Assembly (NCBI GenBank): GCA_964430875.1
Contig: CAYSHP010000006.1
Span: 5,699 to 69,698, forward strand
Length of the DNA: 64,000 nucleotides
Direction: 5' to 3'
Source: an uncultured Halanaerobiales bacterium
GTDB taxonomy: Bacteria > Bacillota > Halanaerobiia > Halanaerobiales > M55B127
Each line of letters begins with the position of its first letter. Positions within the stretch are counted from its first letter, which is position 1. Of this stretch, positions 48,516-63,430 are shown one piece after another. A program made the position numbers and the translations under genes. Under the pieces are notes generated by a model. That model ran no database searches and was not told the origin of the DNA. It saw only the letters and a program-made list of their open reading frames with translations.

Positions 48516-49661
48516 TTATACATTTTGAAAATTAATTTGTAACTCTTTTTCATCTATTCCAGTCTCTGAACAAATCGAATCACATACTCTTTTTAATACT
48601 TTAGAAGCATTAGATTTAGTTAATTCTAATAACAACATCAAATATTGATCTTTGTCCCATTTTGTTATTATATCTCCCTTTCTTAATTCAGTCTCTAATG
48701 TTTTCTCAATATAATATATGTTATTATTTATAAAATTTTGATTATCAAATTTTATATATGCCAAAAATATTGACTTATTATTTCTTTCTGCTCTTCTTTT
48801 TTCTAATTTATAAATCATTCTAAAGATATCATTAGAACATATAAATGCTCCCCTAATATTATCTCTTTCATTTAATTTATCTTGTATTATATTTAGATAA
48901 TTCTTATCAAAATTTTTATTATATAACTCTTCTAACTTTGGCATATTACTCAAATCTAAATTTTTATTAAATAATTCTTTTGCATATTTATAATGAGATC
49001 TAGCATGTCCAATTTTACCAAGCTCTAATAGAGAAGACATATAAATGGTGTGTATTTCTTCTTCTAATGGTTCAATATTAAAACTTTTTTCACAGACCTC
49101 TATTATTTTTTCATGCCGGTCATATTCTTTTAATAGTTTAATATATTCTATTACATTTTCAATATAATACCAGTGATAATTATTTCTACTGGGTATAACC
49201 CAATCATAGTACGGTATCTCGGGCAAATAATCTCCATTATACATATTAAAGGCTTGTTCATAATATTCAAACGCTTCTATTGGTTTTTCTTTACTGACTA
49301 AATTTGCTTTTTTACATAAGTTGATAAACTCTTCAATATCTAACCAATATTCTGATTCTTTATTAAAAAAACATCTTCCCTGACAGTTTATAATGTATTG
49401 GCAATCTTTTTCTTTTGAATTTAAATTTTTCCTTAACCTATACACAAGATTTGTTACTGTATGTGTAGGGTTTTTTATATTCTGGTCAGGCCAAAGATTA
49501 TTCATAATAATTTCAGGATGTATATTTTTCCCTCTTTCTGTTATTAAGTATTTAAATAATAGCCATGGTTTATCATTTGATCTATTATGCGGAGATAATA
49601 GATTACCATTACATTTAACCTTGAATTCACCTAAAGTATAAATCCTTAAAGGTTCATCCAT
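48516..49661 (-). CDS. Regulator R1: SARP/BTAD-type transcriptional activator with C-terminal degenerate GGDEF-like domain
   Basis: N-terminal OmpR/PhoB-type wHTH (YTLGEFKV..KPWLLFKYL..VTNLVYRLRKNL). BTAD-like helical repeat (WLDIEEF..YNGDYLPE..W...R). C-terminal LRKGDIITKWDKDQYLMLL aligns to RxxD-x5-GGDEF-xxLL. Start set at MDEPL (49661, GGGGTGA SD), matching paralog R2. Confidence 0.7.
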   Translation of the reverse strand: MDEPLRIYTLGEFKVKCNGNLLSPHNRSNDKPWLLFKYLITERGKNIHPEIIMNNLWPDQNIKNPTHTVTNLVYRLRKNLNSKEKDCQYIINCQGRCFFNKESEYWLDIEEFINLCKKANLVSKEKPIEAFEYYEQAFNMYNGDYLPEIPYYDWVIPSRNNYHWYYIENVIEYIKLLKEYDRHEKIIEVCEKSFNIEPLEEEIHTIYMSSLLELGKIGHARSHYKYAKELFNKNLDLSNMPKLEELYNKNFDKNYLNIIQDKLNERDNIRGAFICSNDIFRMIYKLEKRRAERNNKSIFLAYIKFDNQNFINNNIYYIEKTLETELRKGDIITKWDKDQYLMLLLELTKSNASKVLKRVCDSICSETGIDEKELQINFQNV

Positions 49662-49926
49662 AAAATCACCCCTTTCAGTGGTTTTTGGGGTAACTGTATA
49701 TGGTATAGAAATGAGAGTTAATAAATTAATAAAAGCTATAGTAAATACAATGAAAAAACATTGCAAGAAAAATTTATCATTATCTTTACCATAGCTTAAA
49801 TTTAAATATATATATTTTTAATTCTCTTTTATAAGTTAACTTTAATTATATCACGAAATTTTTATTTAATCAATATAAATATACTAAATTTTGTTAATTA
49901 TACATTCGATATAAGATTAACTTGTG

Positions 49927-50206: not shown

Positions 50207-50839
50207 ATGAAAAAATTAGGTATTGGTATATTTGTTTTGATGTTTATTGTATTGGTAGCTATGCCAGTTTTAGCTCTTAATGAGTTAGTTGATATTGATG
50301 ATTCTACTTTATGCTATCCTGATTTCTGGACATGGGTAGACGACCGTGATGATAATAGTGTTGACAAAGACTTATTTGATGATAAAGATATGGTTGATTT
50401 TGATGTAAAATTCTGTGGTTTAGGTCAAGGTTTAGGTGGCCAAAGTGTAAATGGTGTAATGTTTATGGAAAAAAATTATGAAAGATCCGATGTAATTAAT
50501 GGTGGTTCATATGCAAATGCTCATGGCATAGTAACCACTCAAATGTCATCTGGTAATTCAAATTTACAATCTGCTGCTATTTATGCAGATGTTAAATACT
50601 TGGGTGATATTGACCTAGTACCAGTAGGACAAAGTGTTAATGGAGTATTATTCCTAGAAAAAGGTTATATGAGATATGATATGATAGGTGGCGGCGCATT
50701 CGCTAATGCTGTTGGTATTATAACAACTCAACTATCCTCAGGTAATGCAAATCTACAACAAGCTATTGTTGATATAGAAGTAAATCCATCTGTTTTCTGT
50801 CATCCAGCTCCAGCTCCAATTTGCCCATGTAGCAAATAG
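50207..50839 (+). CDS. A1: secreted two-repeat N/Q/G-rich protein (candidate fibre subunit)
   Basis: Signal peptide ..AMPVLA|LNE. Acidic Asp-rich linker. Two 52-aa repeats with 63-aa period (GQSVNGV.F.EK.Y.R.D.I.GG.[YF]ANA.GI.TTQ.SSGN.NLQ). Cys-rich tail CHPAPAPICPCSK. AAGGAG SD. Confidence 0.8.
   Translation: MKKLGIGIFVLMFIVLVAMPVLALNELVDIDDSTLCYPDFWTWVDDRDDNSVDKDLFDDKDMVDFDVKFCGLGQGLGGQSVNGVMFMEKNYERSDVINGGSYANAHGIVTTQMSSGNSNLQSAAIYADVKYLGDIDLVPVGQSVNGVLFLEKGYMRYDMIGGGAFANAVGIITTQLSSGNANLQQAIVDIEVNPSVFCHPAPAPICPCSK
50438..50782 (+). repeat. Tandem coding repeat in A1 (2 x about 156 nt, period 189 nt)
   Basis: Residues 78-129 and 141-192 align with more than 60% identity. Confidence 0.85.
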
Positions 50840-50927: not shown

Positions 50928-51626
50928 ATGAAAGTTGATAAAATAATATTTATAAACATCTTAATAATATTATTGGTTTTCAGTATAAGTGGATTTACCT
51001 TTGCTGACAACGTTAGCTTTAGGATTTTTTCCTCCGGTATGAGAATTAATACTACTGTTGAAAGTATCGCTGAATTAAGGTTTAAAAATGTCGTCAAACA
51101 AAAATATGATATAAGCTGTGGATCAGCCGCCTTAGCTACTATATTTCAATTTAATTATAACGATGAGGTAAGTGAACAAGAAATCATCGATATGATTTTG
51201 GGAATTAAAAATATTAGTAGTCTAAAAAATGAATCTGGTTTTAATCTGCTAGATTTAAAAATGGCTGCAGAGTTTTTTGGATACACAGCTCATGGTTTAA
51301 AAGGTAGTCTTGCAGCTATTAGTAAAATTAATTTGCCAATGATTGTTCTCTTAGAAGCACCTCAGGGTCCTCATTTTGTAGTAGTTAGAAAAATCAATGA
51401 AGACTCTGTACAAGTGGCTGACCCTGCTTTGGGTAATCAGTCCATTAAAATTGATAAGTTTGAAAAACAATGGAATAATATATTATTGGCAATTGAAAGC
51501 CGAAATAAAGTCTTAAATGATAATCTTGAAGTTTATGAAATACCTCTTATAACAGGAGGAAAAGATATTATGAGGACTTTAAATGATAGTTGGACAAGAA
51601 TACCTTTTAACCATATAGAATTTTAG
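50928..51626 (+). CDS. A2: periplasmic C39-family cysteine peptidase
   Basis: Signal peptide ..FTFA|DNV. Q58-x5-C64 (KQKYDISCGSAALATIFQ), and H149 (GPHFVVV) with D165 exactly 16 residues later (VADPALG). These are the C39 catalytic set and spacing. AGGAGG SD. Confidence 0.85.
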   Translation: MKVDKIIFINILIILLVFSISGFTFADNVSFRIFSSGMRINTTVESIAELRFKNVVKQKYDISCGSAALATIFQFNYNDEVSEQEIIDMILGIKNISSLKNESGFNLLDLKMAAEFFGYTAHGLKGSLAAISKINLPMIVLLEAPQGPHFVVVRKINEDSVQVADPALGNQSIKIDKFEKQWNNILLAIESRNKVLNDNLEVYEIPLITGGKDIMRTLNDSWTRIPFNHIEF

Positions 51627-51673: not shown

Positions 51674-52051
51674 ATGAAAAACACATTTAAAATCAGTGGT
51701 TTGTTGTTTATGATTCTTATGTTAATACTCTTATCACCTTCTATAACAGCTGCTGATTTCCCCGCAGAATTTGAAAAGGTTTCTGATTCTGAATTGGCTG
51801 CTATAGAAGGAATGGGAAATATATTTGAAATTGTCGAAATTGCAGAAAACGGTTATGAGTTTAGCTATAGTGGAAATAGAGACAATGCTTTCCAAAATGC
51901 CTCAGGTATTATTAGTGTCAGCAATGTTTCTGGTAATGGTAATACAGTTCAAAATATCATAGACCTAAAAGTATGGATTATGAATATTAATGGAAACATA
52001 AATATTGATATTGATGATCTTGGACAATATCTTCAAGAAATGAATTTATAA
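51674..52051 (+). CDS. A3: small secreted one-repeat protein with double-glycine-type leader motif after the signal peptide
   Basis: Signal peptide ..SITA|ADFP. VSDSELAAIEGMG resembles LSxxELxxIxGG. One copy of the NAFxNAxGI..V.N.SGN.N..QN repeat. GGAGGGGG SD. Confidence 0.8.
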   Translation: MKNTFKISGLLFMILMLILLSPSITAADFPAEFEKVSDSELAAIEGMGNIFEIVEIAENGYEFSYSGNRDNAFQNASGIISVSNVSGNGNTVQNIIDLKVWIMNINGNINIDIDDLGQYLQEMNL

Positions 52052-52171: not shown

Positions 52172-53059
52172 ATGAAAAAAATATTAGTCTTTTTATTTAC
52201 TTTGCTTCTTTTTTTAATTTTTATTAATTTTAGTATAGGAGAAATAGTACAGGCCAAAAGTCCCTTTGAAATAGATGTCAGTTTATCTTATTTACATAGT
52301 TCAAATAATAGATTAGCGGTATCAGGTTATAGTGTAATTGAAGTATTAAATGTAGGAAAATTTGAAGTTAGAAAAATAAATAGAGATATACTATCAACAA
52401 ATATAAGATTAAGACACACCACACCTGAAACTAGTGTCGAATTGATAATACCTTATACCTTTAGAAGAGATGAAATTATTAAGTATGCAGATGTGGATTC
52501 TGACACAAATGAACCGACTAGAGAAGTATTAAGCGGGAATGGTTTGGGTGATATACTTTTAAATATACAAACAGATATCAAATATGGTGATGTACATCTG
52601 CAAAATACTCAAGTAAATCTAGGATTGAAAACTTCTACGGGTAAATGGTATGATCCTAAATCAGGTATGTCATTTACATCTGGTCATTATGGATTCAAAT
52701 TGGGTATATCACATATGATACCTATTGATCCCATAGTACTATTTGGAAGTACTAATTATTTTTGGAATATAAAACAATATAATGTAGATCCTGGAGATTC
52801 AATACAATATTCAATGGGGGTAGCCTATGCATTAACACAAAATTTCTCTGTTAATGCCCGCTTTGAGCATACTTTAACAGGAAGTACAGTAAATAATGGA
52901 AGAACAGTTATAGAATCAAGTTCTAATTCTGCAACTTTATATATGGGAGGAAGTTATGTTTCACAAAAAGGTGTTCCCTTTGATGTAATAATAGGTACTG
53001 GTTTAACTGAAGATGCTGCCGATTTCTCTTTTCAACTTAGTAGACCATTTTATTTCTAA
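52172..53059 (+). CDS. A4: small outer-membrane beta-barrel protein (candidate export pore)
   Basis: Signal peptide ..IVQA|KSP. Alternating amphipathic strands throughout. C-terminal beta-signal ..FQLSRPFYF ends in Phe. Size and pattern recall the 'MetA-pathway/transporter' OM barrel family (unverified). Confidence 0.75.
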   Translation: MKKILVFLFTLLLFLIFINFSIGEIVQAKSPFEIDVSLSYLHSSNNRLAVSGYSVIEVLNVGKFEVRKINRDILSTNIRLRHTTPETSVELIIPYTFRRDEIIKYADVDSDTNEPTREVLSGNGLGDILLNIQTDIKYGDVHLQNTQVNLGLKTSTGKWYDPKSGMSFTSGHYGFKLGISHMIPIDPIVLFGSTNYFWNIKQYNVDPGDSIQYSMGVAYALTQNFSVNARFEHTLTGSTVNNGRTVIESSSNSATLYMGGSYVSQKGVPFDVIIGTGLTEDAADFSFQLSRPFYF

Positions 53060-53093: not shown

Positions 53094-53121
53094 AAAAAGC
53101 AGCTTTAAAGCTGCTTTTTTT
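53094..53121. terminator. Bidirectional terminator shared by A4 (+) and regulator R2 (-)
   Basis: 18-nt palindrome AGCAGCTTTAAAGCTGCT flanked by an A-run and a T-run. Same CAGCTTTAAAGCTG core as the hairpin at 48486-48509. Confidence 0.8.
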
Positions 53122-54277
53122 ATATGCTATCAAAATTATATCTAATATCTTCCTTATTTATTTTAAGTTCTTCTTTAATCTCTTCTTTCAATCTTTTTAT
53201 AACTTTATTTACATCTGCTCTAGACATATCCTTAAGTAACATTAAATACTTATCAAAATCCCACCGAGTAATAACATCTCCTTTTCTTAATTCTTTTTCA
53301 ATAATATTTTCTACAATATAATCATTTTGTTTTAAAATATTTTCATTTTCAAATTTTAAATAACTAATAAAAACCGGTTTATCTCTCCTTTCATTCCGTC
53401 TCTCTTCTAATTCGTAAATCATTCTAAATATATCATTTTTACAACTAAAGGCCCCTTTGATATTATTTCTATTTTTTAGTTCTCCTTGAATATCATTAAT
53501 AAAATTATTATTTTTCTTATTATTTTCCGTAAAAATATTATTAAGTTTAGGTGATTTACTTATATCTAAATTTTCACTGAAAAGATTATTGGCATAATTA
53601 TAATGTGATCTAGCATGTGCATGCTCTCCTAACTTAATTAAAGCATCTAAATAATTACTATGAAGTTCTTCTTCATAAGATTCTATATTTAAAGCTTTTT
53701 CAGCTATTGACTCTATTTCTCTATATCTTTCATATTTTTTCAATAAATTAATGAATTCTAGAACTTTTTCAACAAATAACCAGTGGTAATTATTTCGATA
53801 AGGTATAACCCACTCTTGATAAGGTATTTCTGGTAAATAATCTCCTTGATATAAGTTTAAGGCCTCTTTATATAAAGGTATCGCTTGGGCTGGATTATTC
53901 TTTTTTAACTTAGTTGCTTTTTTACTCATTGCAATAAATTCTTCGATATCTAACCAATAGTTTGCATCCTGATTAAAAAAGCAGTTCCCATTAGAGTTGA
54001 TTATATATTGATCACTTTCTTCATTATTAAATAAATTTAGTTGTTTTCTTAATCTGTATACTAAATTTGTAATAGCATGTTTGGGTTTTTTAATATTCTT
54101 TTTAGGCCAAAGATCATTACTAATAACTTCAGAATGTAAGTTTTTTTCTTTTCCAGTAATTAAATATTTGAAAAATAACCACGGTTTTGAATTAAATTTT
54201 TCTTTGGGAGATAATATTTTGCCCTTATATTCAACTTTAAACTTACCTAAGGTATAAATTTCTAATATGTTATCCAT
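53120..54277 (-). CDS. Regulator R2: SARP/BTAD-type activator with degenerate GGDEF-like C-terminus (paralog of R1)
   Basis: YTLGKFKV..KPWLFFKYL..ITNLVYRLRKQL, then WLDIEEF..YQGDYLPE. C-terminal LRKGDVITRWDFDKYLMLL. GGTGGGG SD. Confidence 0.7.
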   Translation of the reverse strand: MDNILEIYTLGKFKVEYKGKILSPKEKFNSKPWLFFKYLITGKEKNLHSEVISNDLWPKKNIKKPKHAITNLVYRLRKQLNLFNNEESDQYIINSNGNCFFNQDANYWLDIEEFIAMSKKATKLKKNNPAQAIPLYKEALNLYQGDYLPEIPYQEWVIPYRNNYHWLFVEKVLEFINLLKKYERYREIESIAEKALNIESYEEELHSNYLDALIKLGEHAHARSHYNYANNLFSENLDISKSPKLNNIFTENNKKNNNFINDIQGELKNRNNIKGAFSCKNDIFRMIYELEERRNERRDKPVFISYLKFENENILKQNDYIVENIIEKELRKGDVITRWDFDKYLMLLKDMSRADVNKVIKRLKEEIKEELKINKEDIRYNFDSI

Positions 54278-54744: not shown

Positions 54745-55257
54745 ATGAGAAAATTGTTAGGTATTGGCACTGCATTGATGGTTCTGATGGTATTAGTCGC
54801 TGTTCCAGCTGTAGCCCAGGAGGCATTTAATAATGAAGAAATGCCCGGCTATTATTATGGGGAAGATGTAATCTTTGATGATGCTGAGACTGAAGAAATT
54901 TATATCGGAGAAGAAATCTATTACAGAGATGATCTTATTACCAATAATGCCTTCCGAGATGCACTAGGTATAACAACCGTTCAACAAGCTGCTGGTAATG
55001 CTAGTGTTTTAGAAAGTAATGTTACTATTGAAGGCTTAGAAGAAGCAGATGAATTTGAATTAAGCGCTCAGGAAGTTGAAGTAGAAGAAGTACTAATTAT
55101 GGAAAGAGACTATACCAGAGTTGATACAATATCTGGTAACGCTTTCCGTAATGCAACTGGTATTACTACTGTTCAACAAGCTGCTGGTAATGCAAATGTC
55201 GTTCAATCTAATGTAGAGGTAAATATTGGAGCAGCCTTTGCAGCTCCCGAACTATAA
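54745..55257 (+). CDS. B1: secreted two-repeat N/Q/G-rich protein (paralogous role to A1)
   Basis: Signal peptide ..VPAVA|QEA. Highly acidic. Two repeats (..D.I..NAFR[DN]A.GITTVQQAAGNA.V..SNV) with 64-aa period. AGGAGGG SD. Confidence 0.8.
   Translation: MRKLLGIGTALMVLMVLVAVPAVAQEAFNNEEMPGYYYGEDVIFDDAETEEIYIGEEIYYRDDLITNNAFRDALGITTVQQAAGNASVLESNVTIEGLEEADEFELSAQEVEVEEVLIMERDYTRVDTISGNAFRNATGITTVQQAAGNANVVQSNVEVNIGAAFAAPEL
54916..55221 (+). repeat. Tandem coding repeat in B1
   Basis: Residues about 58-95 and 117-159. The core NAFR.A.GITTVQQAAGNA is identical in both copies. Confidence 0.85.
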
Positions 55258-55327: not shown

Positions 55328-56023
55328 ATGAAAAACAAAAAACCTTTAATTATTATTATCATTTTATTTTTAATATTCAGTACAGTTGGTTTAGTCAAAG
55401 CAGGAAATGTAAAATTTCAGGTGTTCTCCTCTGGCCCTACAATAACTAGAAATATAAAAAGTAAAACTGAAATTAAATTTCATAAAATAGTTAAACAGAA
55501 ATATGATGTAAGTTGTGGCTCAGCTTCATTAGCAACCATATTTCAATATTACTATAATGATGAAATTTCAGAACAAGAAATAATAAATATAATAAAAAAC
55601 ATTAAAAATATTGACACTTTAAAAAATAGTGCTGGTTTTACTTTATTAGATTTAAAGATGGCTGCTGAGTTTTTAGGTTATAAAGCTTATGGTCTAAAAG
55701 GAGATATTAAAGCCATAAGAAAATTAGATCTACCAATAATTGTGCTTCTTAATTCCCCTAAAGGACCTCACTTTGTAGTTATTAAAGAAGTTAAAACCAA
55801 TTCTGTAAAAATAGCGGATCCAGCTCTTGGAAATTTAAATCTTAGTATTGAAAAATTTAAATCACAATGGAATAAAACATTACTAGCAATAGAAAGTAAA
55901 AATAGTATTGGAAATAATAATTTCAGCAGTTTTGAAAAGCCTAATTTACCACAAGAAAATCATATATTTAATTTAATTGAAAATAATTGGACTAGATTAC
56001 CAAAAGATCATAAAGAATTTTAA
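55328..56023 (+). CDS. B2: periplasmic C39-family cysteine peptidase (paralog of A2)
   Basis: Signal peptide ..LVKA|GNV. Q57-x5-C63 (KQKYDVSCGSASLATIFQ). GPHFVVI with Asp 16 residues after His (IADPALG). Confidence 0.85.
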   Translation: MKNKKPLIIIIILFLIFSTVGLVKAGNVKFQVFSSGPTITRNIKSKTEIKFHKIVKQKYDVSCGSASLATIFQYYYNDEISEQEIINIIKNIKNIDTLKNSAGFTLLDLKMAAEFLGYKAYGLKGDIKAIRKLDLPIIVLLNSPKGPHFVVIKEVKTNSVKIADPALGNLNLSIEKFKSQWNKTLLAIESKNSIGNNNFSSFEKPNLPQENHIFNLIENNWTRLPKDHKEF

Positions 56024-56069
56024 TTTATCTGGTTTTTAAATTGTAAAAATGAAAGGTAGGAGGGAGATC

Positions 56070-56441
56070 ATGCATAAAAAATTAATTGTTAAATTGATTA
56101 TGTCGGTATTAATGGTCTCAATTATTATAACTCCTATTTCAGCTGCCGAAATTCCCGAAGGGTTAAATAGTTTAAATGAAAAGGAATTATCAGGTATTAG
56201 AGGTATGGGGCAAAATTTTAGTATAGAACAAATAAATTCATCAAATGTAAAATTTAGATACAGTAGTAATAAAGATAACGCCTTTAAACATGCCTCAGGA
56301 GTTATGAATATAACAAATGTTTCCGGAAATGAAAATACAATAAATAATGTAGTAGACCTAAAGATTAATATCTATAATATTGAAGAAGTTGAAAATCTTG
56401 AACTATCTGATATTAAAAATATGGTCAATCTTAAAAATTAA
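56070..56441 (+). CDS. B3: small secreted one-repeat protein with double-glycine-type leader motif (paralog of A3)
   Basis: Start set at MHKKL (GGAGGGAG SD). Signal peptide ..PISA|AEIP. LNEKELSGIRGMG motif. Repeat DNAFKHASGVMNITNVSGNENTINN. Confidence 0.78.
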   Translation: MHKKLIVKLIMSVLMVSIIITPISAAEIPEGLNSLNEKELSGIRGMGQNFSIEQINSSNVKFRYSSNKDNAFKHASGVMNITNVSGNENTINNVVDLKINIYNIEEVENLELSDIKNMVNLKN

Positions 56442-56521: not shown

Positions 56522-57391
56522 ATGAAAAAGCATATAATAATTTTTTCTTTATTAATAATGTTTTTATTCTCAAGCTTTATTTTGCAAACAAACTTTAGTC
56601 AAGCAAAAAGTCCCTTTGAAATAGAAATAGGTACTTCTTATTCGCATAGTTCTAATAACAGATTAAATGTGAGTGGATATAGTGTAGTTGAAGTGGTAAA
56701 TATAGGAAAGCTGGAAGTTAGAAAAATCAGAAGGGATATTTTGACTTCCAATTTAAAATTAAGATATAAAAATCAAAGATCAAGTTTTGAAATAGTAATA
56801 CCTTATAAAGTACAAAGAAAAAGTGTAATAAAATATGCGGACACTACTGAAAATGGAGAACCCACTGAAAAAATAAAAACTTCTCATGGTTTAGGCGATG
56901 TTATGATCAATTTAAATACAAATATTAAAAGCAAAAATACTAAATTTAATATAGGAGTTAAAACAACTACCGGGCAGGAATATGGTAATGAAACCGATAT
57001 GAATTTTGGTTCTAATTATTATGGTTTAAAATTAGGCATAAGTCATATAAAACAATTAGATCCTGTAGTCTTTTTTGGCAGTGTAAATTACTTTTGGAAT
57101 ATAGAAAAAGATAATTATAATCCAGGTGATACATTACAATATTCTTTAGGCTTAGCATATGCTTTAAGTCAAAACTTATCTTTAAACACTAGAATCGAAC
57201 AGTCTATAACTTCTAGTTCATATCAAAATAATGACAAAATAATTGGTACCAGTATAAATGCATCCTCCTTATATTTAGGAACTAATTATACAAATCAAAG
57301 TGGCTCTTCCTTTAATTTTCTTATTGGTCTTGGTCTATCTGAAGATTCTGTTGATTATTCTCTACAAATAAATAAGCCATATTATTTTTAA
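56522..57391 (+). CDS. B4: small outer-membrane beta-barrel protein (paralog of A4)
   Basis: Signal peptide ..FSQA|KSP. Same N-terminal KSPFEI.. block as A4. C-terminus ..LQINKPYYF. Confidence 0.75.
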   Translation: MKKHIIIFSLLIMFLFSSFILQTNFSQAKSPFEIEIGTSYSHSSNNRLNVSGYSVVEVVNIGKLEVRKIRRDILTSNLKLRYKNQRSSFEIVIPYKVQRKSVIKYADTTENGEPTEKIKTSHGLGDVMINLNTNIKSKNTKFNIGVKTTTGQEYGNETDMNFGSNYYGLKLGISHIKQLDPVVFFGSVNYFWNIEKDNYNPGDTLQYSLGLAYALSQNLSLNTRIEQSITSSSYQNNDKIIGTSINASSLYLGTNYTNQSGSSFNFLIGLGLSEDSVDYSLQINKPYYF

Positions 57392-57410: not shown

Positions 57411-59195
57411 TCAATTTCTGTTTTTCATTTCATACATGAAGTAATCAGCTTCTTTAAAGACCTCTTCAAGTTCTGTTTTGTGATCCTTTTTTACTCCGAA
57501 ACCAGTAGATATACTAATCGGAAACTCATATTTTTCATCTAATTTATTAACATTGGTTTGTATCCTTTGTTCTATTTTTTTAACTTCATCTTCGTCTGTT
57601 TGAGGGAGTAAAATTGCAAATTCATCTCCTCCCACCCGAGCAAGTATATCTTCTTGTCTTACTGCATTGTCTATCTCACTAGCAACTAGATTAATATATT
57701 TATCGCCTCTGGCATGACCAAATTTATCATTTACTTTTTTCAAACCATCAATATCAGACATAATAATACTAATTGGTAGTAACCTTGAATTATCTAACCT
57801 TTCCATTTCACTTTCGAAATATCTTCTATTATATAATCCAGTCATTTGATCATGAAAAGATAAGTATTTAATCTCTTCTTCTTCTTTTTTTCTTTGGGTA
57901 ATATCATTATAAATTGCATATAAGCCAATTTGACCTTCTTTTAAACTAATTGGGAAAGCATGTATTGTAACATCTACTGTTTTACCTTCTTTTGTTTTGC
58001 GAACCGATTCTTTTTCAATGTCCTGATTATTTAAGACTTTTTTAGTATAATTTTGTCCTTCTTCTTTTTTAGTTTCAGGCACTATTAGATCATCTATGTT
58101 TTTATCTTTTGCTTCTGATTGTGAATAACCAAATAAATTCTCAAAACTTTTATTTATCTTAAGGATTTGATTTTCATTATCTAAAAGAGCAATTGCCTCA
58201 GTTGACTCATCGAATAATTGTTGAAAGAATGCTTTTTGTCTTCTTAACTTTCTTTCAGTTTCTTTTCTTTCAGTTATGTCATTATATATGGCATATATCC
58301 CTATTTGGCCTTTACCTAATTTTATGGGAAAAGAATGCATGGAAACAAAAATTCTTTTACCCTCTTTTGTCTTTCTAATTGTTTCTAACTTCACTTCTTT
58401 GCCTGCAATATTTTTTTTGGTATTATTAATGCCTTCTTCTATTTTTTCTTCGGGAGTTATCAGATCATCTATGTTCTTCCCTTTAATCTCTTTTGCCTGA
58501 TAACCAAATACTTTTTCAAAACTTTTATTTACTTTAATAATCTTGCTTTTATTATCTAAGAGAGCAATTGCTTCGGTTGACTCATTAAACAATTGTTGGA
58601 AATATGCTTGATGTTCTTTTAATCTTTTTTCAACATCTTTTCTATAAAAGGCTTCTGTGATATTCAAAAGATAATTTAATACTTTTTTATCTTCTTTACT
58701 AAAATTAACATCTCTATTTTCATCAATATCTAAAGTTATGCCACCTACTGCTTGCTCTTTAAAGTATAAATCAAAAGTAATGGAATCTTTAATTGGTTTT
58801 GATGCCTCTTCTAATTTTGAATAAGTATTATTATCGGTTGAGTCTTTTGTAATATCTATTACTTCACTAATAATAGAGACTTGATTTTTGCGGTCAGACA
58901 GCTGAAATACACTCTCATCTATTGCAATCTGTTTAAGCACAGCAAGATTATGTCCAACAGTATCTAAAAATTTTACTTTACCATCTACATATTTATAAAC
59001 ACTACCATAATCAGCCTTTTTGATTAAATTCATAGCTGTCTTTAAGAGTTTTGACCAAAATATTTTTTCATCTTCAATACTTATTTCATTGAGTTTATTA
59101 GAAAAATTGATAATTCTTTCAAAACTCTTGTTTAATTCATTAACTCTCTTATTTAGCTGTTTAATTTTCTCTTTTAATTCAGCAATTTCATGCAT
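57411..59195 (-). CDS. Diguanylate cyclase: coiled-coil/GAF-like N-terminus, tandem PAS, GGDEF with I-site
   Basis: Two roughly 113-aa PAS units (QQLF[ND]ESTEAIALLDN..). LTGLYNRRYF, DIDGLKKVNDKFGH, and RQED-x5-GGDEF (active A-site plus RxxD I-site). Confidence 0.9.
   Translation of the reverse strand: MHEIAELKEKIKQLNKRVNELNKSFERIINFSNKLNEISIEDEKIFWSKLLKTAMNLIKKADYGSVYKYVDGKVKFLDTVGHNLAVLKQIAIDESVFQLSDRKNQVSIISEVIDITKDSTDNNTYSKLEEASKPIKDSITFDLYFKEQAVGGITLDIDENRDVNFSKEDKKVLNYLLNITEAFYRKDVEKRLKEHQAYFQQLFNESTEAIALLDNKSKIIKVNKSFEKVFGYQAKEIKGKNIDDLITPEEKIEEGINNTKKNIAGKEVKLETIRKTKEGKRIFVSMHSFPIKLGKGQIGIYAIYNDITERKETERKLRRQKAFFQQLFDESTEAIALLDNENQILKINKSFENLFGYSQSEAKDKNIDDLIVPETKKEEGQNYTKKVLNNQDIEKESVRKTKEGKTVDVTIHAFPISLKEGQIGLYAIYNDITQRKKEEEEIKYLSFHDQMTGLYNRRYFESEMERLDNSRLLPISIIMSDIDGLKKVNDKFGHARGDKYINLVASEIDNAVRQEDILARVGGDEFAILLPQTDEDEVKKIEQRIQTNVNKLDEKYEFPISISTGFGVKKDHKTELEEVFKEADYFMYEMKNRN
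57888..58601 (-). repeat. Tandem PAS-domain duplication inside the cyclase gene (period 125 aa)
   Basis: Residues 199-311 and 324-436 are about 60% identical. Confidence 0.8.
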
Positions 59196-61770: not shown

Positions 61771-62035
61771 CTAATCACTCCCCCTTAGATATTAAAGTAA
61801 AATGGGTATATTATTTCACTTACATCTTATATATTATTTATTCTTTTACACTTCTATTATTCCTTTAAAAATATATGATAAGAAAATAATTTGCAATATT
61901 TGTTTGTCCAAAAGGTAATTCTATTGTATAATAAAAAATATAAAGAATCTTTATTAATCTACTAACCATTGAATAAGTTATTAATCAAGCAATTATATAT
62001 AATAAAATAATCCCTGATGAAAGGTGATTAATAAT

Positions 62036-63430
62036 ATGAAATCAATAAACAAAAAAGATAAAATAAATCTTTGGAAGAACATAGAAAGCATAGACCTCTT
62101 ATATGAAAAAATTAAAAATATGGAAAGTAATAAAAATATAGAGAGTTTTAATCTAACATTATATTTATTTGACTTTAAAGAACTTAACCTAAGTTACTCT
62201 GATTATATAAAATTATTCAGTAAAATAATATCAATTTTAAAAAATTATTCTAATAAATATGTTGAGTTATACTGTTTGGAGCAAGATAAGATAATTTTGT
62301 TTAATGAAAAACAAACTATAAATTCTAAAATAAAGAATATGTTAAAAAGTAGAAAATTTAATATTGATAATAAAAAATTATCCTTATCTCCTCAAATTGC
62401 AAGTGTTAATTGGCCTCGGGATGGTAATGATTTTGATAGTTTATTAGAAAAATTATTGACAAAAATTAAAAATGATAATTCTGACATTAATTACCCAATT
62501 CTGTCTTCTCGACCAGGAAGTGTATTTATTAATAAAAAGGATGACTTTTTGGACAAAGTTGAAAAAATATCAACTCAGCTTTATCTAATAGATAAAGATA
62601 AAAATATTGAAATAATTAAACAAAATATTATTGCTGATAGAACTTTTCAGGTAAGAGGTGGGGAAAAAGGCAACTTTGAATTATTTTATATACTTGCCGG
62701 AAAAGTAGTTTATGAAGAAGAAAATATAGTTTTAACTAAAGGTGATTCTATAAGTGCCCGAAGTGGTGAACAAGAAAAATATTTTAAAACAATAACAGAT
62801 ACCACTTTACTTTATATAACTTCTAATCCAATCTTTGCTAGTGAGCAAAGAAGAATAAAAGAACTTATATCTCTAAATGAAAAAATTGAAGAAAAAGATG
62901 TAGAAACAAGAGAACACTGTGATCGGCTGCAAAAATTAAGTCGTTTAACAGCTATTGAATTAAGCTTAGAAGAGAAAAAAATATTTAATCTCGGTTTCGC
63001 TTCTTTTTTACATGATATTGGAAAAGCAAAAGTACCTTCCTCATTACTACAAAAACCTGACAAGTTAACTAAAAAAGAATGGGAACTTATGAAAAAACAC
63101 ACTAAATGGGGTAAAGAAATTATTTTAGAACATTTTAATAAAAGTTATTTTCATAAAATAGCTGAAATAATTAATCAACACCATGAAAGGTGGGACGGTT
63201 TCGGTTATCCCAAAGGTTTATCGGGAAATGAAATCTTAATTGAAGCTCAAATTTTAAGTGTAGTTGATGCTTTTGATGCTATGACTTATGAAAGACCCTA
63301 TCAAAGGGCTTTTAGTCGTAAAGAAGCTATCGAAGAAATTAAATTTGAAAAAGAAAAACAATTTTCTCCTAAGGCAGTAGAAGCATTTTTAAAAGCTGAA
63401 CAAAAGTTTTTTGAAAAAAATAGTCAATAG
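62036..63430 (+). CDS. HD-GYP domain protein (c-di-GMP phosphodiesterase-type) with central cupin-like domain
   Basis: HDIGKAKVP and HHERWDGFGYPKGL HD-GYP signatures. Central GGEKGNFELFYILAGKV..GDSI is a cupin-like beta-barrel. Start set at MKSINK (AGGTGA SD 8 nt upstream). Confidence 0.85.
   Translation: MKSINKKDKINLWKNIESIDLLYEKIKNMESNKNIESFNLTLYLFDFKELNLSYSDYIKLFSKIISILKNYSNKYVELYCLEQDKIILFNEKQTINSKIKNMLKSRKFNIDNKKLSLSPQIASVNWPRDGNDFDSLLEKLLTKIKNDNSDINYPILSSRPGSVFINKKDDFLDKVEKISTQLYLIDKDKNIEIIKQNIIADRTFQVRGGEKGNFELFYILAGKVVYEEENIVLTKGDSISARSGEQEKYFKTITDTTLLYITSNPIFASEQRRIKELISLNEKIEEKDVETREHCDRLQKLSRLTAIELSLEEKKIFNLGFASFLHDIGKAKVPSSLLQKPDKLTKKEWELMKKHTKWGKEIILEHFNKSYFHKIAEIINQHHERWDGFGYPKGLSGNEILIEAQILSVVDAFDAMTYERPYQRAFSRKEAIEEIKFEKEKQFSPKAVEAFLKAEQKFFEKNSQ

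What the first reader, a model, noticed from the sequence alone, without database searches (positions are those of the whole stretch)
51779..51817. Sec signal peptide followed by a double-glycine-type leader (ELxxIxGMG) in A3/B3, paired with a signal-peptide-bearing C39 peptidase
**Seen in the sequence.**
- A3 reads ..SITA|ADFPAEFEKVSDSELAAIEGMG-NIF.
- B3 (56172-56210) reads ..PISA|AEIPEGLNSLNEKELSGIRGMG-QNF.
- Both place an L/V-S-x-x-E-L-x-x-I-x-G-M-G block about 10-20 residues after the predicted signal-peptidase site.
- A2/B2 have Q-x5-C ... H-x15-D with the spacing of bacteriocin-exporter C39 domains. However, they are stand-alone and carry their own signal peptides (Cys codons at 51117-51119 and 55514-55516).

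**Established knowledge.** C39 domains cleave after GG/GA/GS in LSxxELxxIxGG leaders, normally in the cytoplasm as part of ABC exporters.

**Inference.** Here the cleavage would occur in the periplasm after Sec export. That two-step maturation is unusual and would give FapD-like peptidases a defined substrate. The G-M-G variant leaves the exact scissile bond ambiguous.
Basis: partly seen in the sequence, partly recalled or inferred. Interest (0 to 1): 0.8.

Follow-up and report, generated by a model that had tools for sequence, protein, structure and literature searches.

The report
Double-glycine leader after a signal peptide
Two small secreted fibre-subunit proteins of a Halanaerobiales bacterium carry, just behind their export signal, a second 21-residue tag of the type that bacteriocin-exporter proteases remove; the same tag lies next to the same kind of periplasmic protease in at least 20 distant lineages, including Pseudomonas FapE, so it points to the undefined substrate and cut site of the amyloid-secretion protease FapD.

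Summary
A3 (51674-52051) and B3 (true start 56070, to 56441) each have a Sec-type signal peptide followed by a 21-residue segment that matches the double-glycine leader position by position. Hydrophobic residues sit at -12, -7 and -4, Glu at -8 and Gly at -2. Each gene lies 25-47 nt downstream of a stand-alone C39 peptidase (A2, B2) that has its own signal peptide and an intact Gln/Cys/His/Asp set.

In 88 related loci, 73 of 91 FapD-type C39 genes have this leader 40-330 nt downstream. These fall into 20 C39 clusters at 50% identity. Gly(-2) is invariant in 63 distinct leaders. P1 is Gly (24), Arg/Lys (33), Met (4) or Ala (2).

Genuine Pseudomonas FapE carries the same leader (KDSELAELRG-R|F). 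Published UK4 mass spectrometry lacks exactly the leader peptides.

"GMG" is therefore Gly(-2)-Met(-1)|Gly(+1), not a stretched GG.

The locus is a minimal, duplicated Fap-like cassette: FapB/C-like, FapD-like, FapE-like and FapF-like barrel. Periplasmic cleavage is inferred, not shown.

Periplasmic FapD and suspected FapE processing were already known. The defined leader, its register and its generality were not found in the literature I could search.

The parts
48516..49766 (-). Divergent regulator of cassette A: winged-helix (Trans_reg_C) + BTAD + degenerate GGDEF-like C-terminus
   Evidence: Pfam BTAD 3e-14 and Trans_reg_C 4.5e-8. The same regulator type lies upstream of the cassette in L002.
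50207..50839 (+). A1: signal peptide + two FapB/C-type repeats (..NAHGIVTTQMSSGNSNLQ.., ..NAVGIITTQLSSGNANLQ..). Putative major fibre subunit. No leader motif.
   Evidence: Translation. Paralogue B1 hits NCBIfam FapB at 1e-5. The equivalent gene in L002 and L006 carries Pfam FapBC. No leader-profile hit.
50928..51626 (+). A2: stand-alone FapD-type C39 cysteine peptidase with its own signal peptide. Q58, C64 (51117-51119), H149 (51372-51374), D165 (51420-51422).
   Evidence: Pfam Peptidase_C39 2.3e-24. NCBIfam FapD 7e-38, below the equivalog cut-off. phmmer match to the PCAT1 peptidase domain. AF2 core pLDDT about 90. Foldseek to 6mpz, 3k8u and 7n87: TM-score on the target 0.75-0.84; rmsd about 2.5 A for 6mpz and 3k8u, 5.3 A for the 7n87 NMR model.
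51674..51751 (+). A3 Sec-type signal peptide (residues 1-26, MKNTFKISGLLFMILMLILLSPSITA)
   Evidence: Sequence. All 63 distinct family members have a hydrophobic N-terminal segment; 62 have K/R before it. The cleavage site is a (-3,-1)-rule estimate, not a tool prediction.
51752..51814 (+). A3 double-glycine-type leader (residues 27-47, ADFPAEFEKVSDSELAAIEGM): V36(-12) S(-11) E40(-8) L41(-7) I44(-4) G46(-2) M47(-1). Predicted scissile bond M47|G48 (51814|51815).
   Evidence: Family profile. TIGR01847 positions 1-14 align to residues 33-46. Conserved in orthologues.
51815..52051 (+). A3 predicted mature part (77 residues): one FapB/C-type repeat (NAFQNASGIISVSNVSGNGNTVQN) plus a C-terminal tail. 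FapE-like minor subunit.
   Evidence: Alignments. Faint NCBIfam FapE hit over residues 76-111. AF2 confidence is low, which is compatible with disorder but equally with the shallow 21-sequence alignment.
52172..53059 (+). A4: FapF-type 12-strand outer-membrane barrel with signal peptide and terminal ..RPFYF. Lacks the coiled-coil and linker of Pseudomonas FapF.
   Evidence: NCBIfam FapF 4.7e-15, covering profile positions 122-420 only. PDB 5o65/5o67 FapF 1.5e-10. Pfam Phenol_MetA_deg.
53120..54277 (-). Divergent regulator of cassette B (paralogue of 48516-49766)
   Evidence: Pfam BTAD 1.9e-15
54745..55257 (+). B1: signal peptide + two FapB/C-type repeats
   Evidence: NCBIfam FapB 1.1e-5
55328..56023 (+). 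B2: FapD-type C39 peptidase with signal peptide. Q57, C63 (55514-55516), H148 (55769-55771), D164 (55817-55819).
   Evidence: Pfam C39 4.4e-26. NCBIfam FapD 2.3e-34. Identical to HKL12163.1, 'C39 family peptidase', Halanaerobiales MAG. Coordinates.
56070..56441 (+). B3: FapE-like protein (start corrected to 56070). Signal peptide to 56144. Leader 56145-56207 (AEIPEGLNSLNEKELSGIRGM). Predicted cut M|G at 56207|56208. One FapB/C-type repeat.
   Evidence: Leader-profile hit of 15.8 bits.
56522..57391 (+). B4: FapF-type outer-membrane barrel
   Evidence: NCBIfam FapF 1.8e-20. PDB FapF 5e-15, aligned from B4 residue 29 to residue 33 of the crystal construct.

Best explanation
Window 48.5-57.4 kb holds two paralogous, minimal Fap-like fibre-secretion cassettes in a diderm Halanaerobiales bacterium. 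Each has a regulator, a two-repeat FapB/C-like subunit, a FapD-like C39 peptidase, a one-repeat FapE-like subunit and a FapF-like barrel.

Proposed mechanism:
1. A3 and B3 cross the inner membrane by Sec and lose their signal peptide.
2. This exposes a 21-residue double-glycine-type leader at the new N-terminus.
3. The leader forms a short amphipathic helix. Its residues -12 (V/L), -7 (L) and -4 (I) dock in the hydrophobic groove of the periplasmic C39 peptidase A2/B2, as in bacteriocin-exporter peptidase domains.
4. The peptidase cuts after Gly(-2)-Met(-1), that is M47|G48 in A3 and the equivalent M|G in B3.
5. The trimmed subunit is then competent for export through, or activation of, the A4/B4 barrel. 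There it would nucleate, anchor or cap fibres of A1/B1.

The same step most likely applies to Pseudomonas FapD and FapE, with the cut after ..ELAELRG-R(40)|F(41).

What is shown: the sequence architecture, its conservation, the gene linkage and the fold of A2.
What is inferred: leader binding, cleavage, the exact bond, and the role in opening or using the barrel.
For: 1. Leader profile. Across 63 distinct leaders: -12 is L/V/I in 53, -10 is D in 47, -8 is E in 50, -7 is L in 58 and M in 5, -4 is L/M/I/V in 60, -3 is R in 55, -2 is G in 63 of 63. The positions -12, -7 and -4 are the ones shown experimentally to dock in the groove of LahT150, and leaders normally end in GG, GA or GS (PMC6363468).

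2. Canonical members. Twenty-four of the 63 leaders end in a true GG. This fixes the register of the rest.

3. Curated model. TIGR01847 aligns its positions 1-14 to A3 residues 33-46, which leaves M47 at the Gly(-1) position. The L017 leader also hits ComC and lactococcin-G leader models.

4. Linkage. Of 91 FapD-type C39 genes, 73 have the leader 40-330 nt downstream. They form 20 clusters at 50% C39 identity. Only a handful of hits occur elsewhere among about 3,300 ORFs, and most of those I inspected (6 of 10) are further signal-peptide-plus-leader proteins in the same loci.

5. Compartment. All 63 leader proteins, and 81 of 83 C39 proteins, have N-terminal signal-like hydrophobic segments. 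P1 lies 23-46 residues (one outlier at 63) after the hydrophobic core, median 30.

6. The enzyme looks active. Q/C/H/D are invariant. The predicted fold matches leader-bound LahT, ComA and PCAT1 peptidase domains.

7. Experimental data from Pseudomonas.
- The FapD active-site Cys is required for secretion, and FapD acts in the periplasm.
- In UK4 FapE the first peptide detected starts at residue 72.
- Peptides spanning the GG/GA stretch at 97-121 are seen intact (50 spectra).
- The two good-sized tryptic peptides inside the proposed leader (SSAFKPIEMK and DSELAELR; sequences from the 97%-related L008 FapE, whose numbering matches UK4) were never seen.

8. No FapF linker here. A4/B4 lack the coiled-coil and linker that were proposed as an alternative FapD target, which leaves A3/B3 as the only recognisable substrate.
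Against: - No cleavage has been observed for any member of this family.
- P1 is Met here and Arg or Lys in most proteobacterial members. Characterised C39 peptidases cut after Gly, Ala or Ser.
- TIGR01847 scores just below its cut-off, and B3 does not hit it at all.
- The AF2 model of A3 is low-confidence (pLDDT 56), with only a 6-residue helix at 38-43.
- The UK4 data are also compatible with any cut between residues 21 and 71.
- The 80 metagenome loci were chosen by similarity to A2 and are enriched in one proteobacterial Fap clade (24 of 68 distinct C39 proteins).
- The enzyme-substrate covariation I found is confounded by phylogeny.
Confidence: 0.65

Rival explanations
1. The leader is a docking or targeting signal that is bound but not cut at that point. 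The C39 protein, or the FapF-type barrel, uses the helix to capture the unfolded subunit, as C39-like domains of type I exporters bind substrates or CsgE/CsgG recognise CsgA N22. The essential proteolysis happens elsewhere, or on another protein.
For: - P1 is Met, Arg or Lys in most members, which does not fit known C39 specificity.
- Non-catalytic C39-like domains that bind substrates exist; 3zua and the HlyB entries appear among the fold matches.
- Rouse 2017 kept FapF open as a possible target.
Against: - The catalytic Q/C/H/D set is invariant in all 16 aligned relatives.
- The FapD Cys is required for secretion.
- Gly(-2) is invariant in 63 of 63 leaders and 24 end in a canonical GG. Such conservation is expected at a scissile site, not merely at the end of a binding helix.
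- The leader's tryptic peptides are missing from mature UK4 FapE.
- A4/B4 have no linker to cut.
Confidence: 0.17
2. The leader is cut, but in this G-x-G clade the bond lies after the second glycine (G48|N49 in A3). G-M-G would then act as a stretched double-glycine.
For: - Both glycines are nearly invariant within the clade: x is M, L, Q, A, K or R.
- A Gly at P1 would satisfy classical C39 specificity.
Against: - This places Gly at -3 and a variable, often bulky or charged residue at -2, which is the position invariant in all 63 leaders.
- It shifts E, L and I to -9, -8 and -5, out of register with both the family profile and TIGR01847.
- In 55 of 63 leaders the residue after G-x is F, Y, M or L, not G.
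Confidence: 0.12
3. The resemblance to double-glycine leaders is coincidental. The conserved N-terminal block of FapE-like proteins serves something unrelated to the peptidase, for example fibre nucleation or interaction with the major subunit.
For: - The motif is short.
- Hits to curated leader models are below their cut-offs.
Against: - Five separately conserved positions coincide with the canonical leader.
- The block is attached to at least two unrelated mature parts: 125-residue one-repeat proteins and roughly 250-residue FapE. Some loci have a second copy on a different small protein. This is the behaviour of a portable signal.
- It is tightly linked to the C39 gene.
- It is absent from mature FapE in vivo.
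Confidence: 0.06

Closest known systems
Pseudomonas Fap functional-amyloid system (fapABCDEF): FapD periplasmic C39 peptidase, FapE minor subunit, FapF trimeric 12-strand barrel
   Same: - Same gene order: repeat subunit, then C39, then leader-bearing subunit, then barrel.
- A2/B2 hit the FapD model, A4/B4 hit FapF (model and crystal structure), B1 hits FapB, and A3 faintly hits FapE.
- FapE carries the same leader after its signal peptide.
   Different: - All scores are far below the equivalog cut-offs.
- There is no FapA and only one FapB/C-like gene. That gene has two repeats rather than the near-universal three.
- The FapE-like protein is half the size (125 against about 250 residues) and has one repeat.
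- The barrel lacks the coiled-coil and linker.
- P1/P1' is M|G rather than R|Y/F.
- The cassette is duplicated in tandem.
- The host is a diderm Firmicute. Complete Fap operons were reported only in Proteobacteria in 2013-2018; the December 2025 GTDB survey also reports amyloid operons (Fap and/or curli) in other phyla, 'even Bacillota'.
Double-glycine leader processing by peptidase-containing ABC exporters (PCAT/AMS: ComA, LahT, PCAT1, colicin V and class II bacteriocin exporters)
   Same: - Same peptidase fold and catalytic residues.
- Same leader grammar: L(-12) S(-11) x x E(-8) L(-7) x x I(-4) x G(-2).
- Similar leader length, about 20 residues.
   Different: - The peptidase is a free periplasmic protein with its own signal peptide, not the cytoplasmic N-terminal domain of an ABC transporter.
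- The leader is internal until signal peptidase removes the Sec signal.
- Export across the outer membrane uses a FapF-type barrel, not a type I system.
- P1 is relaxed to R, K, M or A.
Curli (Csg) type VIII secretion
   Same: Sec-exported, repeat-containing amyloid subunits, with a minor nucleator and a dedicated outer-membrane channel. One related locus (L006) lies next to csgF/csgG.
   Different: Curli has no protease step and no double-glycine leader. Its channel (CsgG) and accessory proteins are unrelated.
Acinetobacter Fil 'thick pilus' cluster (NCBIfam FilB C39 peptidase, FilC)
   Same: A2/B2 hit FilB (2e-27, 9e-30) and A4/B4 hit FilC (1e-5, 5e-8) as second-best families.
   Different: Scores are far below the cut-offs and always weaker than for FapD/FapF, also in 10 other loci tested. 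I could not fetch a Fil locus to see whether a Fil protein carries the leader.

Membership tests
Double-glycine (GG-type) leader peptide | Hydrophobic residues at -12, -7 and -4 that dock in the peptidase groove, and Glu at -8 | tested here: met
   A3 has V36, L41, I44 and E40. B3 has L, L, I and E. Family profile across 63 leaders. Defining positions taken from PMC6363468.
Double-glycine (GG-type) leader peptide | Gly at -2 | tested here: met
   G46 in A3 and the equivalent G in B3. 63 of 63 distinct leaders.
Double-glycine (GG-type) leader peptide | Gly, Ala or Ser at -1 | tested here: not met
   Met in A3 and B3. In the family, G 24, A 2, R 25, K 8, M 4. So 26 of 63 relatives meet the feature, but this locus does not.
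Double-glycine (GG-type) leader peptide | Match to a curated leader model | tested here: inconclusive
   TIGR01847: A3 scores 14.5 bits against a cut-off of 15.7 (E 0.04). B3 has no hit. The L017 relative scores 13.3 bits and also hits ComC and lactococcin G-beta leader models.
Double-glycine (GG-type) leader peptide | Lies at the extreme N-terminus of a cytoplasmic precursor with no Sec signal | tested here: not met
   A Sec-type signal peptide precedes the leader in A3, B3 and all 63 relatives.
Double-glycine (GG-type) leader peptide | Removed by the cognate C39 peptidase | not testable with these tools
   Indirect only: the leader's tryptic peptides are absent from UK4 FapE in vivo.
Peptidase family C39 (bacteriocin-processing cysteine peptidases) | Profile match above the curated threshold | tested here: met
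   PF03412: A2 86.1 bits and B2 91.7 bits, cut-off 22.
Peptidase family C39 (bacteriocin-processing cysteine peptidases) | Catalytic Cys/His/Asp plus oxyanion Gln | tested here: met
   A2 has Q58, C64, H149 and D165. They align to PCAT1 and are invariant in relatives.
Peptidase family C39 (bacteriocin-processing cysteine peptidases) | Papain-like fold of leader-binding peptidase domains | tested here: met
   AF2 core pLDDT about 90. Foldseek to 6mpz, 3k8u and 7n87: E 1e-8 to 1e-10, TM-score on the target 0.75-0.84.
PCAT/AMS peptidase-containing ABC exporter | C39 domain fused to transmembrane and ATPase domains | tested here: not met
   A2 and B2 are 232 and 231 residues. Related C39 ORFs are mostly 226-290 residues. 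Hits to ABC-exporter models cover only the peptidase domain.
Fap functional-amyloid system (fapABCDEF) | FapD: periplasmic stand-alone C39 peptidase | tested here: inconclusive
   Best NCBIfam family is FapD (130 and 119 bits), but the equivalog cut-off is 330. Signal peptide present. Homologue, not equivalog.
Fap functional-amyloid system (fapABCDEF) | FapF: 12-strand barrel with N-terminal coiled-coil and plug | tested here: inconclusive
   The barrel matches FapF (55 and 73 bits against a cut-off of 700; PDB 5o65/5o67 at 1e-10 to 5e-15). Profile positions 1-121 (coiled-coil and linker) are absent.
Fap functional-amyloid system (fapABCDEF) | FapB and FapC, each with three imperfect repeats | tested here: not met
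   One gene per cassette, with two repeats. FapB model 25 bits against a cut-off of 190. Three repeats are 'almost universal' in canonical operons.
Fap functional-amyloid system (fapABCDEF) | FapE: minor subunit of about 250 residues encoded between fapD and fapF | tested here: inconclusive
   Same position and same leader. Only a faint model hit (14 bits against 250) and half the length.
Fap functional-amyloid system (fapABCDEF) | Forms amyloid fibrils | not testable with these tools
   No experiment possible. The AF2 model of A3 has low confidence.

The most novel reading that the evidence does not exclude
A Sec signal peptide followed by a double-glycine-type leader is the portable address tag of a general two-step secretion route in diderm bacteria: Sec, then a free periplasmic C39 peptidase, then a FapF-type 12-strand barrel.
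- The peptidase has evolved a relaxed P1 pocket (Gly, Arg/Lys, Met).
- Removal of the leader from the FapE-type subunit is the licensing step that opens or primes the barrel for the whole fibre.
- Substrates of such systems could then be found genome-wide from the tag alone.
- The FapD-FapE interaction would become a defined anti-biofilm target in Pseudomonas.
Probability: 0.4. Interest if true: 0.85.

Novelty: new variant of a known kind. Interest (0 to 1): 0.68.

Why it matters
FapD's catalytic Cys has been known since 2017 to be essential for Fap amyloid secretion. Its substrate and recognition sequence are still described as unknown, or only "thought to be" the FapE N-terminus, in reviews up to December 2025. 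The original study stated that Fap proteins lack canonical C39 sequences and pointed to GG/GA motifs near residue 100. Its own peptide table shows those motifs intact.

The comparison here yields a residue-level, immediately testable prediction:
- a classical leader helix directly behind the signal peptide;
- an invariant Gly at -2;
- a cut after the next residue, at R40|F41 in UK4-type FapE and M47|G48 in A3.

It also shows three further things.
- Double-glycine leader recognition operates in the periplasm and downstream of Sec.
- P1 specificity in this branch of C39 must be broader than Gly/Ala/Ser.
- A stripped-down four-gene version of the system exists in diderm Firmicutes. That version could be a simpler model for reconstitution.

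Tried and rejected
- AF2 of A3 alone: pLDDT 56, so uninformative beyond a weak helix at 38-43.
- Covariation between P1 class and C39 columns. The residue two after the oxyanion Gln is Tyr when P1 is Gly or Met, and Thr when P1 is Arg or Lys. An Asp in the C-terminal extension occurs in 33 of 39 Arg/Lys-class enzymes. The Arg/Lys class is essentially one clade, so I do not count this as evidence.
- Word-indexed protein search with A3 found only 8 close relatives. The exhaustive profile search found only 18, because the proteins are short and divergent. Going through the C39 neighbour was far more productive.
- A1 and B1 as further substrates: rejected for this locus, since there is no leader-profile hit. 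Some other lineages do have a second leader-bearing small subunit upstream of the peptidase.
- Cleavage at the GG/GA stretch of FapE, as suggested in 2017: disfavoured, because peptides spanning it are abundant.
- One literature search on 'FapD' alone was wasted on a clinical acronym.
- I could not retrieve an Acinetobacter Fil locus, and the single genome-contig scan returned only one syntenic MAG.
Full report
**1. What is in the window**

Between 48.5 and 57.4 kb lie two paralogous cassettes on the + strand. Each is preceded by a divergently transcribed regulator.
- Cassette A: A1 50207-50839, A2 50928-51626, A3 51674-52051, A4 52172-53059.
- Cassette B: B1 54745-55257, B2 55328-56023, B3 56049/56070-56441, B4 56522-57391.

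Family assignments:
- Pfam and NCBIfam assign A2/B2 to peptidase family C39. The best specific model is the Pseudomonas amyloid peptidase FapD (130 and 119 bits, below the equivalog cut-off of 330).
- A4/B4 match the barrel of the amyloid transporter FapF.
- B1 matches FapB (1e-5).
- A3 matches FapE only faintly.
- A4/B4 also match the FapF crystal structures 5o65/5o67.
- The regulators combine a winged helix, a BTAD domain and a degenerate GGDEF-like end.

The exact proteins exist in NCBI as HKL12157-HKL12164 from a Halanaerobiales MAG. They are annotated only as 'hypothetical protein', 'C39 family peptidase' and 'transporter'. From established knowledge, Halanaerobiales are diderm Firmicutes, so a periplasm and an outer membrane are expected.

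**2.

- 51779-51817 encodes A3 residues 36-48, VSDSELAAIEGMG. 56172-56210 encodes LNEKELSGIRGMG in B3.
- Each block starts 9 residues after a plausible signal-peptidase site.
A2 has Q58-x5-C64 and H149-x15-D165, and B2 has the equivalents. They align to the catalytic residues of PCAT1.
- B3 probably starts at 56070.
- A leader profile scanned across all six frames of the 64-kb window puts A3 and B3 first and second (17.4 and 15.8 bits, next hit 5.8). They remain first and second, weakly (8.5 and 8.0 bits), when every G-x-G-type sequence is removed from the profile.

**3. Conservation in orthologues**

- Eight close homologues and a syntenic Halanaerobiales MAG (L001, which has both cassettes) keep EL-x2-[IV]-x-G-M-G.
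- An exhaustive profile search found only 18 relatives.
- The distant one-repeat proteins among them keep [LV]-[ST]-D-x-E-L-x2-[IV]-x-G-x-G, with x being M, L, Q, A, K or R.
- Their genomic contexts repeat the cassette. L002 has a BTAD regulator, FapBC, C39, the leader protein and a FapF-like barrel. L004 and L006 also have the leader gene directly after the C39 gene.

**4. The motif generalises to the whole FapD family, including real FapE**

I retrieved a Pseudomonas fap operon through the FapF crystal sequence (L008; its FapF is 97% identical to UK4). Its FapE reads MNTYRWLTVLCLAASMPAYA|SSAFKPIEMKDSELAELRGRFVMPGR.... That is a signal peptide followed by the same block.

A metagenome scan with a C39 alignment returned 80 further loci. 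Across all loci:
- 73 of 91 C39 genes have a leader-profile hit 40-330 nt past their stop codon.
- These give 63 distinct sequences, from 20 C39 clusters at 50% identity (31 at 60%, 41 at 70%).
- Most of the remaining cases are contig ends or weaker variants visible by eye, such as L009 IDDTNLAKIQGMG and L031 LAQLSKQRGGF.
- Hits elsewhere among about 3,300 ORFs are few. Most of those I inspected (6 of 10) are additional small proteins with a signal peptide and a leader. Four of them, which also have one FapB/C-type repeat, lie just upstream of the C39 gene.
- Of 57 C39 genes with at least 2.2 kb of downstream sequence, 49 have the leader gene, 46 have a FapF-like barrel gene, and 40 have both.
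- All 63 leader proteins have a hydrophobic N-terminal segment (62 with K/R before it). P1 lies 23-46 residues after it (one outlier at 63), median 30.
- 81 of 83 distinct C39 proteins also have a hydrophobic N-terminal segment.

**5. Register and the 'GMG' question**

The position profile over 63 leaders:

| Position | Residues (count of 63) |
|---|---|
| -12 | L/V/I 53 |
| -11 | S/K/T 43 |
| -10 | D 47 |
| -8 | E 50 |
| -7 | L 58, M 5 |
| -4 | L/M/I/V 60 |
| -3 | R 55 |
| -2 | G 63 |
| -1 | R 25, G 24, K 8, M 4, A 2 |
| +1 | F 27, Y 26, G 8 |

- This is the canonical L(-12)S(-11)xxE(-8)L(-7)xxI(-4)xG(-2)G(-1) leader.
- In the LahT150-leader crystal structure, -4, -7 and -12 dock in a hydrophobic groove and are the residues needed for cleavage. 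Glu(-8) is conserved but dispensable. Leaders normally end in GG, GA or GS (PMC6363468).
- Because 24 members end in a true GG, the alignment fixes A3 as G46 at -2, M47 at -1 and G48 at +1.
- TIGR01847 independently gives the same register: model positions 1-14 align to A3 residues 33-46.
- So the second Gly of 'GMG' is the first residue of the mature protein in this clade. In the other clades that position is F or Y.
- A cut after G48 cannot be excluded, but it would break the register.

**6. The enzyme**

- A2's predicted core (residues about 50-195, pLDDT about 90) superposes on the double-glycine peptidase domains of LahT (6mpz, solved with its leader), ComA (3k8u) and PCAT1 (7n87). TM-score is 0.75-0.84 on the target; rmsd is about 2.5 A over some 140 columns for 6mpz and 3k8u (5.3 A for the 7n87 NMR model).
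- Q, C, H and D are invariant in relatives down to 30% identity.
- No FapD or FapE structure is in the PDB copy.

**7. What is already known, and the fit with published data**

- Rouse et al. 2017 showed that FapD is periplasmic and that its Cys is required for FapC secretion. [quoted passage not shown] They pointed to GG/GA motifs in FapE and to the FapF linker.
- Searches of PMC and bioRxiv found no description of a leader in FapE. Subscription journals are not covered.
- The 2017 peptide table for UK4 FapE is informative:
  - The first peptide seen starts at residue 72.
  - Peptides spanning VVGGAGLGSGQG (97-121) are abundant and intact. Those GG/GA motifs are therefore not the main cut site.
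  - The well-sized tryptic peptides of the proposed leader, SSAFKPIEMK (21-30) and DSELAELR (31-38), are absent (sequences from the 97%-related L008 FapE).
  - After R40|F41 the next tryptic peptides are FVMPGR (6 residues) and a 50-residue peptide. That explains the gap up to residue 72.
- These data are consistent with cleavage at the leader but do not prove it.

**8. Mechanism proposed**

- Steps: Sec export and signal-peptide removal; the leader helix docks on the periplasmic C39; the cut falls after G-x; the trimmed FapE-like subunit engages the FapF-type barrel and nucleates, anchors or caps A1/B1 fibres.
- In this minimal system the barrel has no coiled-coil or linker. The alternative target proposed for FapD therefore does not exist here.
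- Binding, cleavage, the exact bond and the licensing role are all inferences.

**9. Comparison and novelty**

- The locus works like a Fap system but is not a canonical member.
  - It has no FapA.
  - It has one two-repeat subunit instead of FapB plus FapC with three repeats each.
  - Its FapE-like protein is half-size.
  - Its barrel is truncated.
  - All model scores are well below equivalog cut-offs.
- It uses the leader grammar and peptidase fold of PCAT/AMS exporters, but in a different compartment, after Sec, without an ABC transporter, and with a relaxed P1.
- I rate it a new variant of a known kind. The components and the suspicion of FapE processing are known. The defined Sec-then-double-glycine leader, its register, its presence in genuine FapE and in at least 20 lineages, and the minimal diderm-Firmicute cassette were not found in the literature searched.

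**10. Limits**

- No experiment was possible and no complex model could be made.
- The loci were sampled by similarity to A2 and are dominated by one proteobacterial clade.
- Signal-peptide sites are rule-of-thumb estimates.
- The P1-pocket covariation is phylogenetically confounded.

Noticed in passing
window 51510-51626 (A2 C-terminal tail) and 55910-56023 (B2); C39 genes of L002-L088: 58 of 83 distinct FapD-type C39 proteins end in a C-terminal Phe (FF 20, LF 13, EF 12, DF 6). A2 ends ..NHIEF, B2 ..DHKEF and FapD ..SDFF. The roughly 35-residue tail before it has low confidence in the AF2 model. A terminal aromatic residue is typical of outer-membrane beta-signals or docking peptides and is odd for a soluble periplasmic enzyme. 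It might tether the peptidase to the barrel.
   Followed up: partly
window 52172-53059 (A4) and 56522-57391 (B4): The FapF-like barrels align to FapF only from profile position 122, or residue 33 of the crystal construct. The mature protein begins only about 4 residues before the first strand. There is therefore no coiled-coil or linker, and probably no plug helix. What gates the pore here is unclear.
   Followed up: partly
L021 566-961, L022 625-966, L031 3022-3390, L032 1495-1854, L072 7-405; also L063 174-524 and L065 5-364: In several other lineages, a second small protein with a signal peptide and the same leader (..DDELGGQRGG.., ..DQELNAQRGR..) is encoded upstream of the C39 gene, directly upstream or up to about 2 kb away. 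In L021, L031, L032 and L072 it also has one FapB/C-type repeat. Some systems therefore appear to have two leader-bearing substrates.
   Followed up: partly
PMC5557850 Supplementary Data 6 (UK4 FapE peptides): Peptides covering the FapE GG/GA stretch (residues 97-121) are abundant and intact (50 spectra). A peptide starting at residue 72 lies upstream of that stretch. This argues against the GG/GA motifs that the 2017 paper suggested as a possible FapD site.
   Followed up: yes
window 48516-49766 (-), 53120-54277 (-), 57411-59195 (-), 62024-63430 (+): Both cassettes have a wHTH-BTAD regulator with a degenerate GGDEF-like C-terminus. A PAS-PAS-GGDEF diguanylate cyclase lies immediately downstream of cassette B. 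A large ORF 5 kb further on contains an HDxGK motif reminiscent of HD-GYP phosphodiesterases; no domain search was run on it. This hints at c-di-GMP control of the fibres.
   Followed up: no
L006 4387-6286 and L007 2362-4261: In one GC-rich relative, the FapBC/C39/leader-protein/barrel cassette lies directly next to csgF, csgG, a curlin-repeat gene and a secretin gene. Fap-like and curli-like machineries are adjacent there.
   Followed up: no
window 50795-50839 (A1 C-terminus); P0045; L008 5380-5426 (FapC C-terminus): The major-subunit candidates end in Cys- or His-rich tails: A1 ..FCHPAPAPICPCSK, P0045 ..HHHHGGGCK, and Pseudomonas FapC ..GCTVCAAGSGVRF. B1 has no Cys in its tail. This may be a shared C-terminal disulfide or metal-binding motif.
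   Followed up: no
window 56049-56072: The longest ORF for B3 starts at 56049, but a strong GGAGGGAG ribosome-binding site precedes the ATG at 56070, and NCBI calls the 123-residue form. Window coordinates are unaffected.
   Followed up: yes
C39 alignment columns (B2 Y59 and B2 I194 equivalents), loci L002-L088: The residue two positions after the oxyanion Gln is Tyr in enzymes whose neighbour has Gly or Met at P1, and Thr in those with Arg or Lys. An Asp in the C-terminal extension occurs in 33 of 39 Arg/Lys-class enzymes. These are candidate S1-pocket determinants, but they are confounded by phylogeny.
   Followed up: partly
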